Assembly: GCA_965248535.1 (NCBI GenBank)
Contig: CBDFJR010000002.1
Coordinates: 1,952,001-2,016,000, forward strand
Source: Phormidesmis sp.
GTDB lineage: Bacteria; Cyanobacteriota; Cyanobacteriia; Leptolyngbyales; Leptolyngbyaceae
Direction of reading: 5' to 3'
Length of the DNA: 64,000 bases
A program made the position numbers and the translations under genes. Below, in pieces: positions 11,689 through 25,863 of the stretch. The notes under the pieces were generated by a model. The model had not been told where the DNA came from. It saw only the letters and a program-made list of their open reading frames with translations, and searched no databases. The first letter of the stretch is position 1. Each line of letters opens with the position of its first letter.

Positions 11689-13374
11689 ATGTTGCAAACC
11701 CTCTCACCCAAACCTCTGCGCTGGCAACAGCAAACCAAGTCTCCACTGGCGCGTCAAGTGGATGTTTCTCTGTCGGCTGCTCAGTTTGCTTTTTATCTGT
11801 GGTGGGACAGTCACATTGCAAACCGTTCTCCAGCCCGCCGCGATCGCCGCGCTCAATGGCTGGTTAGCACTTTACTCAATTTAGGCCCGACGTTTATCAA
11901 GATTGGGCAAGCGCTCTCGACTCGCGCAGATTTGCTGCCGATCGAATATGTCAAGGCGCTCTCACAGCTTCAAGATCGCGTCCCAGAATTTGGCGCTGAC
12001 CAAGCGATCGCCATTATTGAATCAGAACTGAATGGCCCCCTGCACACGCTTTATTGTGAGTTTGATCGGGTGCCTCTAGCTGCCGCGAGTTTAGGACAGG
12101 TTCATCGCGCCAGACTGCACACGGGCGAAGAAGTCGTGGTCAAAGTGCAGCGTCCTGGACTCGACCAATTATTTGACTTAGATCTCAAAGTTTTAGATCG
12201 CGTCGTTCGGTTGAGCACTCGATATTCGGCGATCGCCCGACAATACGATCTCGGTGCGATTTATCAAGAGTTTGCCGAAATTCTCTATAAAGAGGTCGAT
12301 TATGTTCAAGAAGCGATGAACGCCGATCGCTTTCGCCATAATTTCGTCGATCACCCTCGCATTGTGGTGCCCAAGATTTATCCGCGCTACACCACAAAGC
12401 GCGTGTTGACCATGGAGTATGTGCCCGGCATCAAAGTCAACGATCGTCGCAGCCTAGAAGCGATCGGCATCGATCCCAAAGATATCAATCATTTAGGCAT
12501 TTGTGCTTATCTGAAGCAGTTGCTGCAAGACGGCTTCTTTCAAGCTGATCCCCATCCCGGCAATATGGCAGTGACGATCGACGGACGGCTGATCTTCTAT
12601 GACTTTGGCATGATGGCAGAAGTGATGCCGATCAACCGCGATCAGATGGTCAAGACCTTCTTCGCCGTTTTAAAAAAAGACACCGACGAAGTGATTCACA
12701 CGCTGACTGATATGGGCTTAATTGAGCCAATGTCAGACATGACCCCTGTGCGGCGCGTCTTAGGGTTTTTAATCGATCGCTTCACCGATAAGCCCGTCGA
12801 ACTGCAAGCCTTTAAGAATTTGCGAAACGAGCTATACACCCTGTTTGAAAAGCAGCCCTTTCGACTGCCTGCCAAGATGACGTTTATCATCAAGGCGTTG
12901 ACAACGCTAGACGGGGTGGCTCGCGATTTAGATCCGCAATATAGCCTGCTGATTGCTGCAAAACCCTTTGTCAAGAGTCTGGTGACCACGGCCCCCAAAA
13001 ATCACGGCAGTGGGTTGGGTGAGTTGGTGCGCCAAGCTCAAAGTTTTCTGACCTATCAGATTCGCAAACCCAACTCGGCAGACCTGACGATTCAGCGACT
13101 CGAAGCGCGACTCGAACAAGGCGAATTTCAAATTCGAGTCCAATCAGAGAGCGATCGCCACCTCAAAACCCTACACTTGGCGGTGAAGTCCCTAATTTAC
13201 GCCTGCTTAACGGGGTTTTCGGGCTTGTCAGGAGTGGTGCTGCTCGTGGGGGCTTATCAAGGAGGTGCGATCGCGAGTTTTGTCGTCGCGGGCGTGTTTG
13301 GCGTTTTTCTAATCAAATCGCTGGTGCGACTCGCCTTGAGAGAACGGCTCGAATCACTGCGGAATCCCTCTTGA
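11689..13374 (+). CDS. ABC1/UbiB/AarF family atypical kinase
   Basis: LGPTFIKIGQ, AAASLGQVH, VVKVQRP, FFQADPHPGN, YDFGMM; C-terminal TM helices. Confidence 0.93.
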   Translation: MLQTLSPKPLRWQQQTKSPLARQVDVSLSAAQFAFYLWWDSHIANRSPARRDRRAQWLVSTLLNLGPTFIKIGQALSTRADLLPIEYVKALSQLQDRVPEFGADQAIAIIESELNGPLHTLYCEFDRVPLAAASLGQVHRARLHTGEEVVVKVQRPGLDQLFDLDLKVLDRVVRLSTRYSAIARQYDLGAIYQEFAEILYKEVDYVQEAMNADRFRHNFVDHPRIVVPKIYPRYTTKRVLTMEYVPGIKVNDRRSLEAIGIDPKDINHLGICAYLKQLLQDGFFQADPHPGNMAVTIDGRLIFYDFGMMAEVMPINRDQMVKTFFAVLKKDTDEVIHTLTDMGLIEPMSDMTPVRRVLGFLIDRFTDKPVELQAFKNLRNELYTLFEKQPFRLPAKMTFIIKALTTLDGVARDLDPQYSLLIAAKPFVKSLVTTAPKNHGSGLGELVRQAQSFLTYQIRKPNSADLTIQRLEARLEQGEFQIRVQSESDRHLKTLHLAVKSLIYACLTGFSGLSGVVLLVGAYQGGAIASFVVAGVFGVFLIKSLVRLALRERLESLRNPS

Positions 13375-13510
13375 CACTCCCACGGCTCCGCAAAGCTAAA
13401 GCCGTGGGATTCTTGATTCAATGAAACCACTTAACCTAGAGTCCTTGCGTCATCTAGACCAGAGGTGGGATTCTCCCCAAGCGTTAATTCGGGTATGCCC
13501 TACCCTATTT
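13371..13510 (-). ncRNA. Putative TnpB omegaRNA/reRNA scaffold
   Basis: GGGCATACCCGAATTAACGCTTGGGGAGAA...TTGAATCAAGAATCCCACGG...TCAA resembles tnpB 3'-end/right-end RNA scaffolds; 5' boundary uncertain. Confidence 0.6.
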
Positions 13511-13888
13511 GCGCTTCTTACTCAGTTGCCTGCGACGGGAAACTCGTCTTCAGCACTGAGCGCCGCAAGTCCTGTTTAAGTTTGAAGCAGATAGGCCTCA
13601 AAATGCTGTTTGTCTAGCTCCTCTGAATCTTTTACCTACTGCGAGGGGGAGTCTAGAAAAATGCAGTAGAACCGCATAGATTCAATTTTCAAGGTTCAGC
13701 GTGTCTCTCGACAGCAAGGTTTTTTAAGTGGTTGATTACCTTTCCACAAGTACAAAATTATCACAAATCGGAGTGCGATTTCATGAAGATTGCTGGACTC
13801 TGCCTGCTGCCGCAGGCGCGAGAACCCTCGCTACATCCCACGGCTGAAGCACGATGGGTTTTGCGGGTTCTCAGGCTCTCCCGTTTCT
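13371..13888 (-). mobile_element. Non-autonomous IS200/IS605-family element (no tnpA, tnpB deleted)
   Basis: Minus-strand right end AAGAATCCCACGGCT...AGCCGTGGGAGTGTCAA; left-end hairpin CCCATCGTGCTTCAGCCGTGGG; preceded by target TTAT; residual tnpB-like tail RVGHTRINAWGE; no terminal inverted repeats or target duplication. Confidence 0.85.
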
Positions 13889-14017
13889 ATAAAATCGCCG
13901 TGCTGATTAATTTGTCCCCCACAAAATCCGTCTAGGGTGTAGAAAGGATCAGGGATGTCGGTTGCCTCCCATCCATCCCAGTAGACTGTCCTTTCTAATC
14001 TCTCTGCACACGGCGCT

Positions 14018-25750: not shown

Positions 25751-25760
25751 GAAGGAAAAA

Positions 25761-25822
25761 CGTTCATCCCCTCTAAAAACACAGACGGGGACGGAAGTAA
25801 GGACATTCCTGAAGGAACGCGC
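25761..25822 (+). ncRNA. Glutamine riboswitch (glnA RNA motif)
   Basis: CGTTCATCCCC...GGGGACGGAAGTAAGG...CCTGAAGGAACGCGC matches the glnA motif; upstream of a DUF4278 gene. Confidence 0.88.
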
Positions 25823-25863
25823 TTCTCTTCATCCCATAAAGCAACTTTTTGGAGAAGCGACTC

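What the first reader, a model, noticed from the sequence alone, without database searches (positions are those of the whole stretch)
13371..13888. Protein-less IS200/IS605 mini-element that retains a TnpB omegaRNA end
Seen: a 518-bp element on the minus strand, bounded by target TTAT at the left end and ...GTGTCAA at the right end, with both subterminal CCCACGGCT-type hairpins. It has no tnpA or tnpB ORF, only the tail RVGHTRINAWGE. The interior (13510-13760) is not obviously decayed coding sequence but a run of hairpins (CTCAGT...ACTGAG, GACGGG-AAA-CTCGTC, TCTAG...CTAGA) downstream of a TGnGATAAT -10-like box (13757-13765). Known: TnpB guide RNAs derive from the tnpB 3' end and right end, with the guide taken from flanking DNA. 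Inference: a mobile stand-alone guide-RNA cassette with an extended structured 5' domain, served in trans by TnpA/TnpB.
Basis: partly seen in the sequence, partly recalled or inferred. Interest (0 to 1): 0.8.

Follow-up and report, generated by a model that had tools for sequence, protein, structure and literature searches.

The report
Gene-less transposon carrying large guide RNA
This is a 518-base jumping element with no genes that carries its own promoter and a large folded RNA whose end matches the guide RNA of the DNA-cutting enzyme TnpB; guide-only elements of this kind are known, but the extra RNA domain conserved here across cyanobacteria appears not to have been described.

Summary
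Window 13371-13888 (minus strand) is a precisely bounded, recently inserted, protein-less IS200/IS605 element (a PATE). It has 3 full copies in this cyanobacterial genome, and the site is empty in 7 of 7 same-genus genomes. It sits 3' of TTAT, at the stop codon of an ABC1-kinase gene.

It is a chimera:
- The left end is 96% identical to a resident tnpA-tnpB element.
- A promoter-like box follows.
- Then comes an RNA gene of about 380 nt that ends at the right end.

The last ~140 nt of that RNA are homologous to the tnpB 3' end plus right end of the partner TnpB clade, which is the omegaRNA position. The preceding ~140-nt core matches no tnpB or tnpA sequence, holds no conserved ORF and hits no Rfam family. 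It covaries strongly, including a pseudoknot at the 5' terminus.

The two-domain RNA module occurs without tnpB in at least 23 of 401 sampled cyanobacterial genomes (12 families). Relatives are deep in four metatranscriptome libraries. Intact copies persist in complete genomes that lack the cognate TnpB.

OmegaRNA-bearing PATEs are already in print, so this is a new variant of a known kind. TnpB use in trans and the role of the 5' domain are inferred, not shown.

The parts
13889..13892 (-). TTAT target / transposon-adjacent motif next to the left end. On the + strand it reads ATAA and holds the original TAA stop of the ABC1-kinase gene.
   Evidence: TTAT precedes all 3 full copies. Empty sites in congeners read ...TCG TAA... 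at this point.
13796..13888 (-). Left end, shared with the resident autonomous tnpA-tnpB element.
   Evidence: 96% identity over 93-97 nt to G000:C2:2302811-2302907. Similarity stops at the tnpA stop codon of that element.
13837..13858 (-). Left-end subterminal imperfect hairpin; its 3' arm is identical to that of the right-end hairpin.
   Evidence: Read. The 8-nt arm GCCGTGGG is found 474-476 nt upstream of the right end in the 3 full copies.
13757..13784 (-). Promoter-like site: ATGAAA, 16 nt, GATAAT with an upstream TG.
   Evidence: A comparable TG-n-TAnnnT box lies a few bases before the first stem in most related copies (judged by eye).
13717..13748 (-). 5'-terminal H-type pseudoknot: stem 1 GTGG/CCAC, stem 2 AGGT/ACCT, A-rich third loop.
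   Evidence: Stem 1 appears as four covarying types and stem 2 switches A-U/G-C across 26 copies. Stem 2 pair 11-36 is GC in 9 and AU in 7.
13610..13746 (-). 5' domain core, specific to the gene-less element: pseudoknot, tetraloop hairpin, two nested long helices and a second pseudoknot.
   Evidence: An nhmmer profile of this domain hits only the 5 module copies in the genome and no tnpB 3' region. Helices 1, 2 and 4-7 covary.
13514..13563 (-). Nested 50-nt hairpin repeat inserted in the apical loop of a linker helix. It is a separate small repeat family.
   Evidence: Absent from most related copies. One solo copy at G000:C5:460120-460169. Many copies in relatives, in both orientations.
13371..13510 (-). 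3' domain: omegaRNA-type scaffold, homologous to the tnpB 3' end plus right end of the partner TnpB clade.
   Evidence: nhmmer positions 182-327 of the module profile match 9 of 10 tnpB-linked 3' regions, E 1e-12 to 2.5e-31. Alignment. Sub-threshold RAGATH-18 resemblance.
13471..13509 (-). Remnant of the TnpB C-terminal coding tail (RVGHTRINAWGE). It overlaps a covarying hairpin with a GGGCA loop.
   Evidence: tblastn. Helix 10 has changes on both sides in 5 of 5 pairs.
13379..13408 (-). Right-end subterminal hairpin.
   Evidence: The arms covary among relatives, often with a bulged T in the 5' arm.
13371..13379 (-). Right-end terminus GAGTGTCAA. Its complement supplies T+TGA, a new stop for the ABC1-kinase gene.
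   Evidence: Near-invariant in the related copies (one reads GAGTGCCAA, one truncated copy ends ...GTCAT) and present in the tnpB-linked elements aligned to their end. Protein end ...LRNPS is unchanged against congeners.
13351..13370 (-). Predicted guide: flank read out of the right end, antisense to the last codons of the ABC1-kinase gene.
   Evidence: Inference from position. No second genomic site with a TTAT or TTAC motif matches it.

Best explanation
The feature is a non-autonomous IS200/IS605 element (a PATE). It entered this lineage recently and inserted 3' of TTAT, exactly at the stop codon of an ABC1-kinase gene. The insertion left the protein unchanged, because the right end supplies T+TGA.

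It is a chimera. Its left end comes from the resident tnpA-tnpB element. The rest is a promoter-driven structured RNA gene of about 330-380 nt that ends at the right-end boundary.

Shown here:
- the boundaries, the copies and the empty sites;
- the partner element;
- homology of the last ~140 nt to the omegaRNA-encoding tnpB 3' end plus right end;
- strong covariation through both RNA domains;
- wide spread of the two-domain module, without tnpB beside it, in cyanobacteria.

Inferred:
- transcription starts at the conserved -10 box, runs through the right end and picks up flank as a guide;
- TnpA from the partner element moves the element;
- TnpB from one of the five partner-clade tnpB loci loads the RNA in trans and cuts the vacated TTAT+guide joint, which restores the element by recombination.

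The 5' domain is specific to the gene-less form. Its core is ~140 nt, with a 5'-terminal pseudoknot and a second pseudoknotted core. I take it to be an accessory module that replaces the tnpB mRNA context. It would give a defined, protected 5' end and a stable fold, so that the RNA accumulates and competes for TnpB. This last step is the weakest.
For: Copies and ends. Empty site in 7 of 7 congeners, with the silent stop-codon junction.

Partner: Y1 TnpA and TnpB (Pfam Y1_Tnp, OrfB_IS605, Cas12f1-like_TNB). Left end 96% identical over 97 nt; right end 74% over 62 nt with the same terminus.

3' domain homology. No match of the 5' domain to tnpB or tnpA.

Structure: RNAalifold gives 66 pairs, 41 with compensatory changes. 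My 79-pair structure with pseudoknots is 96.3% paired against 84.1% in shuffles (0 of 500 reach it). 46 pairs change on both sides against 26.2 (0 of 500). Slid controls give 31-45% paired and 6-16 such pairs. G-U cells number 117 against 26 A-C cells, which favours this strand. There is no conserved ORF.

Expression hint: contigs of 4 of 4 RNA libraries from 4 studies cover only 13406-13512 and 13598-13747. Summed depths run from tens to 3110, and contigs join the two domains.

Association with the nuclease: partner-clade TnpB (E<=1e-90) is in 16 of 23 module-bearing genomes and in 81 of 378 others (my cross-tabulation).
Against: No strand-specific reads, RNA ends or TnpB binding data. Logan contigs cannot prove transcription.

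The window copy's scaffold is only distantly like the resident TnpBs' own scaffolds: 56.1 bits for the partner, against 99 bits for a tnpB-linked scaffold from another genome. Resident TnpBs may therefore not accept it.

7 of 23 module-bearing genomes lack the cognate TnpB clade, three of them complete genomes (G376, G400, G044). Their copies are as intact as the others: 233-313 bits over the full profile.

Short sister elements with the 3' domain but no 5' domain are multi-copy in relatives. The 5' domain is therefore not needed for spread.

Kin are not independent, so the association figures overstate.
Confidence: 0.65

Rival explanations
1. The RNA module works independently of TnpB. On this reading it is a large structured non-coding RNA that began as an omegaRNA and is now kept for another role. 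Two candidate roles: an antisense or regulatory RNA reading into the 3' end of the convergent gene, or a ligand-sensing RNA, given the pseudoknot at its 5' terminus.
For: Intact full-length copies occur in genomes without the cognate TnpB clade, and with only distant TnpA, 23-39% identical.
- In G376 three copies are ~85% alike and differ by compensatory changes.
- In G044 the cognate tnpB survives only as fragments while the module is intact.
- High depth in RNA libraries.
- Several insertions abut the stop of a convergent gene: 5 of 33 loci have an open frame ending at the element end.
Against: - The terminal hairpins keep the form expected of TnpA-recognised ends and change together with the left ends.
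- The family is enriched in genomes with the cognate TnpB (16/23 against 81/378).
- No conserved genomic neighbourhood.
- No second-site target with a TAM for any of the 5 guides in this genome.
- The PreQ1 family did not match.
- Insertion at stop codons follows from the TTAT/TTAC target, which contains the complement of TAA.
Confidence: 0.2
2. It is a plain miniature transposon with no functional RNA. The interior is passenger DNA that looks conserved only because the copies are young.
For: The 3 full copies in this genome are 97-100% identical, so on their own they say nothing about selection.
Against: The module is found at 65-94% identity in 12 cyanobacterial families. It keeps a promoter-like box, and 46 of 79 pairs show changes on both sides, well above shuffled and slid controls.
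Confidence: 0.05
3. The interior is decayed tnpB (or tnpA) coding sequence left by an internal deletion.
For: The last ~40 nt before the scaffold core still read as a TnpB C-terminal tail. Both the module and the tnpB DRD-coding region contain CTAGAC (seen; too short to count).
Against: - tblastn finds nothing upstream of the tail.
- nhmmer at maximum sensitivity matches only profile positions 182-327 in 9 of 10 tnpB 3' regions; the two 5'-side hits have E 1.3 and 6.5.
- No frame is open throughout the family.
Confidence: 0.03
4. It is an IStron-like element: a self-splicing group I intron fused to an IS200/IS605 element.
For: It inserts next to a gene end without harming the gene, and it holds a large pseudoknotted RNA.
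Against: There is no Intron_gpI match at E<=10 in the element or at E<=5 in 20 related loci; the one group I match in L063 lies outside the module. The RNA has its own promoter downstream of the left end. RNA-library contigs of relatives do not cover the window's left end, though their left ends differ, so that is weak.
Confidence: 0.02

Closest known systems
PATEs (palindrome-associated transposable elements) of IS200/IS605 that encode omegaRNAs, as noted for Geobacillus stearothermophilus (Meers et al., preprint PMC10055086; passages read)
   Same: No protein genes. Both ends are kept, with subterminal hairpins. The element inserts next to a fixed short motif. A guide-RNA scaffold sits at the right end and would have to be used by a TnpB encoded elsewhere.
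   Different: This element has its own conserved promoter-like box and a 5' RNA domain (~140-nt core) with two pseudoknots that tnpB-linked scaffolds lack. The module is conserved across at least 12 cyanobacterial families and is swapped between different end types. I saw no such domain in the passages read. The paper's figures and supplements were not seen.
tnpB-linked omegaRNA of IS200/IS605 TnpB (the partner clade in this genome; general model recalled from the ISDra2 work)
   Same: The last ~140 nt share sequence and helices with the tnpB 3' end plus right end and finish at the same terminus.
   Different: There is no overlapping tnpB ORF. The upstream part is replaced by unrelated structured RNA. 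The apical loop of the main hairpin differs from the tnpB-linked versions.
RAGATH-18-derived guide RNAs of IS607 TnpB (Ren et al. 2024, PMC11061315; abstract and passages read)
   Same: A TnpB guide-RNA core. The paper places 64% of RAGATH-18 RNAs next to a TnpB, so many are not. The 3' domain resembles the model weakly.
   Different: Scores are below the family threshold: 27.4 and 23.9 bits against 44.9. The partner here is an IS605-type element with a Y1 transposase, not IS607.
Guide RNAs of TldR, the nuclease-dead TnpB-derived repressors (recalled; a 2026 preprint seen only in a search listing)
   Same: A TnpB-type guide RNA with its own promoter, no longer tied to a nuclease ORF in cis.
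   Different: TldR guides sit beside the tldR gene and target host promoters. Here no TnpB-like gene is within 1.5 kb, the ends still look transposable, and no second-site target was found.
preQ1-I riboswitch aptamer (resemblance recalled, not tested beyond Rfam)
   Same: The 5'-terminal pseudoknot has the same order and similar sizes of parts: a 5-bp stem, a short loop, a 4-nt second-stem strand, an A-rich third loop.
   Different: No PreQ1 match at E<=10 in the window region or at E<=5 in 20 related loci. It lies at the 5' end of a ~330-nt RNA rather than in an mRNA leader.

Membership tests
IS200/IS605 non-autonomous element (PATE) | Insertion 3' of a fixed short motif, with no target duplication and no terminal inverted repeats | tested here: met
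   TTAT precedes 3 of 3 full copies. Empty sites in 7 of 7 congeners show a clean junction with no duplication.
IS200/IS605 non-autonomous element (PATE) | Subterminal imperfect hairpins at both ends with matching arms | tested here: met
   Left-end hairpin 13837-13858 and right-end hairpin 13379-13408 share the arm GCCGTGGG.
IS200/IS605 non-autonomous element (PATE) | No transposase or nuclease gene inside the element | tested here: met
   tblastn with the partner TnpA and TnpB gives only a 13-aa tail match. No conserved ORF in the family.
IS200/IS605 non-autonomous element (PATE) | An autonomous relative with a Y1 transposase and matching ends in the same genome | tested here: met
   G000:C2:2302811-2304574 carries Y1_Tnp and OrfB_IS605/TNB proteins. 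Left end 96% identical; same right-end terminus and hairpin arms.
IS200/IS605 non-autonomous element (PATE) | Excision and insertion catalysed by TnpA | not testable with these tools
   Only indirect: three 97-100% identical copies and empty sites in congeners.
TnpB omegaRNA (guide RNA) | Scaffold ends at the right-end boundary, so that the flank can serve as the guide | tested here: met
   Homology and conserved structure run to ...GAGTGTCAA and the flanks diverge immediately after it.
TnpB omegaRNA (guide RNA) | Sequence homology to scaffolds encoded at tnpB 3' ends | tested here: met
   nhmmer: 9 of 10 tnpB-linked regions match profile positions 182-327. In the own genome, 5 tnpB-linked hits.
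TnpB omegaRNA (guide RNA) | Conserved secondary structure supported by covariation | tested here: met
   Helices 9-15 of the 3' part: 28 of 39 pairs change on both sides.
TnpB omegaRNA (guide RNA) | Transcribed from the element strand, with a 3' end beyond the right end | tested here: inconclusive
   Relatives are covered by contigs of 4 RNA libraries, but contigs give no strand or ends and DNA carry-over cannot be excluded.
TnpB omegaRNA (guide RNA) | Bound by TnpB and directing DNA cleavage | not testable with these tools
   No experiment was possible. The cognate clade is absent from 7 of 23 module-bearing genomes.
Rfam RAGATH-18 (IS607 TnpB guide RNA core) | Score at or above the family's gathering threshold | tested here: not met
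   27.4 bits (tnpB-linked L071) and 23.9 bits (module L047) against 44.9. No hit on the window copy.
preQ1-I riboswitch | Match to the Rfam PreQ1 covariance model | tested here: not met
   No match at E<=10 in window 13300-13950 or at E<=5 in 20 related loci.
IStron (group I intron fused to IS200/IS605) | Group I intron core | tested here: not met
   No Intron_gpI match inside any module.
Nezha and other classical cyanobacterial MITEs | Terminal inverted repeats and flanking direct repeats | tested here: not met
   The element has neither. Nezha's features were taken from passages of PMC3184786.

The most novel reading that the evidence does not exclude
The two-domain RNA is a new class of large structured RNA derived from a TnpB guide RNA. 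On this reading its pseudoknotted 5' domain is a functional add-on. It might gate or boost guide activity, for instance by sensing a ligand through the 5'-terminal pseudoknot or by capturing non-cognate TnpBs. Alternatively it might give the RNA a role of its own that keeps it intact in cyanobacteria that have lost the cognate nuclease.
Probability: 0.2. Interest if true: 0.85.

Novelty: new variant of a known kind. Interest (0 to 1): 0.6.

Why it matters
Gene-less IS200/IS605 elements that keep a guide RNA are thought to live off TnpB made by other elements. What such parasites of a parasite need in order to succeed is unknown.

Here a whole family, spread over at least 12 cyanobacterial families, has added a promoter and a conserved, pseudoknotted RNA domain to the guide scaffold. 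The nuclease-linked scaffolds lack that domain. The RNA appears abundant in environmental RNA libraries.

That gives a concrete, testable case of a guide RNA evolving accessory structure outside the protein-coding context. It bears on two questions: how omegaRNAs compete for TnpB, and how guide RNAs become independent genes, which is the route towards tracrRNA-like or TldR-type systems. If the 5' domain raises RNA stability or loading, it could also be of use for TnpB-based editing tools.

The persistence of intact copies in complete genomes without the cognate TnpB is unexplained and deserves an experiment.

Tried and rejected
1. Interior as decayed coding sequence. tblastn and nhmmer --max found nothing upstream of the tail. 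Rejected.

2. Known RNA families. Rfam at gathering threshold over the window. Rfam in E-value mode on the element, on 20 related loci and on 5 tnpB-linked loci. Only sub-threshold RAGATH-18 matches appeared.

3. A long-range pairing that I saw by eye, between AACCACTTAA at the 5' end and TTAAGTGGTT in the 3' domain. Copies that change the 5' stretch to CCTGT keep AAGTGG. Rejected in favour of the local 5' pseudoknot.

4. 'Left-end-less, domesticated copies'. I first read copy E and most related copies as lacking a left end.
   - Copy E has a left-end hairpin 574 nt upstream.
   - Many relatives have a short left end after TTAT or TTAC.
   - 5'-domain-only hits L061 and L087 are 3'-truncated relics.
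   - For several copies (the group of L048-L055) I found no convincing left end, so this stays open.

5. Second-site targets of the five guides in this genome: none with a TAM.

6. Nezha MITE. My recollection that it is IS200/IS605-derived was wrong: it has inverted and direct repeats.

7. Earlier notes of this scan, searched by place and by sequence: nothing.

8. Literature searches for a cyanobacterial omegaRNA or stand-alone guide family returned no paper describing this module. That is not proof that none exists.

9. Parts of the window without cover (left end, flanks). Those runs hold other organisms, so this is no evidence.

10. The genome search does not take DNA alignments, so I used single DNA queries.
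Full report
**What is at the coordinates**

Read on the minus strand, window 13371-13888 starts right after TTAT and ends ...GGAGTGTCAA. The window is G000:C2:1952001-2016000. The genome is a cyanobacterium: kaiABC genes are present and the class-level relatives fit.

The genome holds ten matches to the element:
- three full copies (100, 98 and 97% identity), all preceded by TTAT and all ending at the same base, with unrelated flanks;
- two copies that begin about 140-150 nt into the element (95%);
- three left-end-only matches;
- one solo copy of a 50-nt hairpin;
- one inverted self-match.

In 7 of 7 same-genus genomes the two flanks of the window copy are adjacent. The junction shows that the element split the last sense codon in front of the TAA stop of an ABC1-kinase gene (Pfam ABC1). 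The complement of the right-end terminus supplies T+TGA, so the protein still ends ...LRNPS as in its relatives.

**The partner**

One left-end match (96% over 97 nt) belongs to a complete element at G000:C2:2302811-2304574.
- It carries a divergent 134-aa Y1 transposase and a 385-aa TnpB. Pfam assigns Y1_Tnp, OrfB_IS605 and Cas12f1-like_TNB.
- Its right end is 74% identical to the mini-element's over 62 nt, with the same terminus and the same hairpin arms.
- The genome has about 25 tnpB-like loci. Five belong to this clade (62-100% identity), and one of those is split.

**What the interior is not**

- tblastn with the partner TnpB and TnpA finds only the C-terminal tail, element 402-440 to TnpB residues 362-374.
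- A profile of the whole RNA module was searched with nhmmer at maximum sensitivity against ten tnpB 3' regions. It matches nine of them, but only over profile positions 182-327. The two hits further upstream have E 1.3 and 6.5.
- No reading frame stays open across the family.
- No Rfam family matches the element or 20 related loci.
- The only near-hit is RAGATH-18, the core of IS607 TnpB guide RNAs (Ren et al. 2024, passages read). It scores 27.4 bits on a tnpB-linked scaffold and 23.9 bits on a module copy, against a threshold of 44.9.

**What the interior is**

Related genomes carry the stretch from about 140 nt into the element to its right end, without tnpB nearby.
- 0 of 9 such loci had tnpB.
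- In one search, TnpB appeared in 5 of the 43 loci scanned, and each of those had been fetched through a left-end or hairpin-repeat match.
- In one search, TnpB appeared only in the 3 loci of L046-L075 that match the 3' domain alone.

In a sample of 401 genomes of the class, 87 have some match. By my reading of the rows, at least 23 genomes in 12 families have both domains. Only two candidates per genome were scored, so this is a lower bound.

Aligned copies share three features:
- a TG-n-TAnnnT box a few bases before the first stem (judged by eye; the window's own box is);
- a conserved RNA-like body;
- a terminal hairpin whose arms differ from copy to copy but always pair, followed by the near-invariant GAGTGTCAA (one aligned copy reads GAGTGCCAA).

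**Structure**

I aligned 20 copies from 19 genomes (A1). Left out were:
- the near-identical or truncated copies B, C and D;
- two copies with large insertions (L034, L056);
- three copies of a variant class (L068, L069, L075);
- five copies for which the script found no 5' anchor (L012, L014, L024, L025, L051); L051 later proved full-length.

RNAalifold predicts 66 pairs, 41 with compensatory changes. I added two pseudoknot helices and one invariant loop-strand contact, giving 79 pairs:

| Measure | Observed | Shuffled | Slid partners |
|---|---|---|---|
| Cells paired | 96.3% | 84.1% (0 of 500 reach it) | 31-45% |
| Pairs changed on both sides | 46 | 26.2 (0 of 500) | 6-16 |

The 5'-terminal stem could not be scored on A1 because of alignment gaps. 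Counted separately on 26 copies, it appears as GTGG/CCAC, CAGG/CCTG, GCGG/CCGC and GAGG/CCTC. It interleaves with a second stem that switches AGGT/ACCT to GGGT/ACCC, forming an H-type pseudoknot with an A-rich loop.

G-U cells outnumber A-C cells 117 to 26, which favours the element strand. The 5' domain alone gives a weaker 39 to 20, and the structure was derived on this strand. The window copy folds with z = -2.64.

It sits in an apical loop and is absent from most relatives.

**Two domains**

The 3' domain (window 13371-13510) is homologous to tnpB-linked scaffolds. The 5' domain core (13610-13746) occurs in this genome only in the five module copies. Elsewhere it occurs only with the 3' domain or as truncated relics. 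Short sister elements consisting of a left end plus the 3' domain are multi-copy in relatives, so the 5' domain is not needed for spread.

**Mobility and modularity**

I first thought most copies lacked a left end. That was wrong for many.
- Copy E has a left-end hairpin matching its own right-end hairpin 574 nt upstream.
- A group of relatives has a short left end directly after TTAT or TTAC.
- Others have a left end like the window's.

Copies W and E share a 95% identical module but have different end hairpins. The window type carries the partner element's left end and hairpin arms. The RNA module is therefore exchanged between end types. For some copies I found no left end.

**Expression**

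Only Logan contigs were available. Four RNA libraries from four studies (freshwater, mat, soil, biocrust) were laid at 80% likeness or more. They cover only 13406-13512 and 13598-13747, with summed depths from tens to 3110. Some contigs join the two domains while skipping the nested repeat. These are relatives from other organisms. Contigs show neither strand nor ends, and DNA carry-over cannot be excluded.

**Link to TnpB**

Partner-clade TnpB (E<=1e-90) is present in 16 of 23 module-bearing genomes and in 81 of the other 378. Kin are not independent.

Searches with all candidates scored confirm that five module-bearing genomes lack it:

| Genome | Best TnpB match to the partner |
|---|---|
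| G376 | 38% |
| G400 | 36% |
| G059 | 34% |
| G166 | fragments only |
| G044 | fragments of the clade only |

G376, G400 and G044 are assemblies of 1-4 contigs. These five genomes have only distant TnpA, 23-39% identical. Scored with a profile built only from TnpB-positive genomes, their modules reach 233-313 bits over the full length, like the controls. In G376 three copies about 85% alike differ by compensatory changes. In G400 three of the four copies look near-identical in the alignment (no identity figure was computed), and the fourth has a degenerate right-end hairpin.

None of the five guides in this genome has a second site with a TAM.

**Reading**

The element is an omegaRNA-bearing PATE. 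[quoted passage not shown] Earlier notes of this scan on other genomes reach the same filing.

Three things go beyond that:
- a conserved promoter plus a pseudoknotted 5' domain that nuclease-linked scaffolds lack;
- the breadth of the family;
- intact copies where the cognate nuclease is missing.

I commit to homing support by trans TnpB as the main function. I take the 5' domain to be a stabilising or competitive accessory, and that step is inference only. I hold at 0.2 the rival that the RNA has a TnpB-independent role.

Noticed in passing
G000:C5:~1702650-1703243 (locus L005 ~1283-1878): A sister element (~590 bp; same RNA module at 95%, different end hairpins) sits between kaiB and kaiC of the kaiABC clock cluster, antisense to them. 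Its right end is 24 nt from the kaiB stop. In 5 of the 6 same-genus genomes with a match the kaiB-kaiC spacer is about 22-45 nt; one has 197 nt and one incomplete genome had no match.
   Followed up: partly
window 13514-13563; also G000:C5:460120-460169: A 50-nt GC-rich hairpin repeat is nested in an apical loop of the RNA. It is a separate small repeat family, found solo once in this genome and many times in related genomes, in both orientations. In two relatives it lies just after a distant tnpB.
   Followed up: partly
window 13371-13374 and 13889-13892: The TTAT target is the complement of A+TAA, and the right-end terminus supplies T+TGA. Insertion at a TAA stop therefore leaves the host protein unchanged. 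In 5 of 33 related loci an open frame on the other strand ends exactly at the element end.
   Followed up: partly
G000:C5:1479175-1479206: In one full copy the 12-nt loop of the right-end hairpin is inverted (reverse-complemented) relative to the other copies, while the arms are unchanged.
   Followed up: no
G000:C2:933288-933757: Another gene-less element of about 470 bp has a left end 89-90% like the window element's and a matching right end, but it lacks the two-domain RNA module.
   Followed up: no
G014, G002, G004 (e.g. L025:1501-1634): A short sister form (left end plus the 3' scaffold only, about 220 bp) is multi-copy in related genomes and often sits at contig ends.
   Followed up: partly
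window 25759-25823 (+): Glutamine riboswitch (glnA leader type), 58.7 bits against a threshold of 35.
   Followed up: no
L075:2079-2188 and L063:1961-2219: In two relatives the module lies a few hundred bases from CRISPR repeats (one of the two scores just under the family threshold) and from a group I intron, respectively. This is probably coincidence.
   Followed up: no
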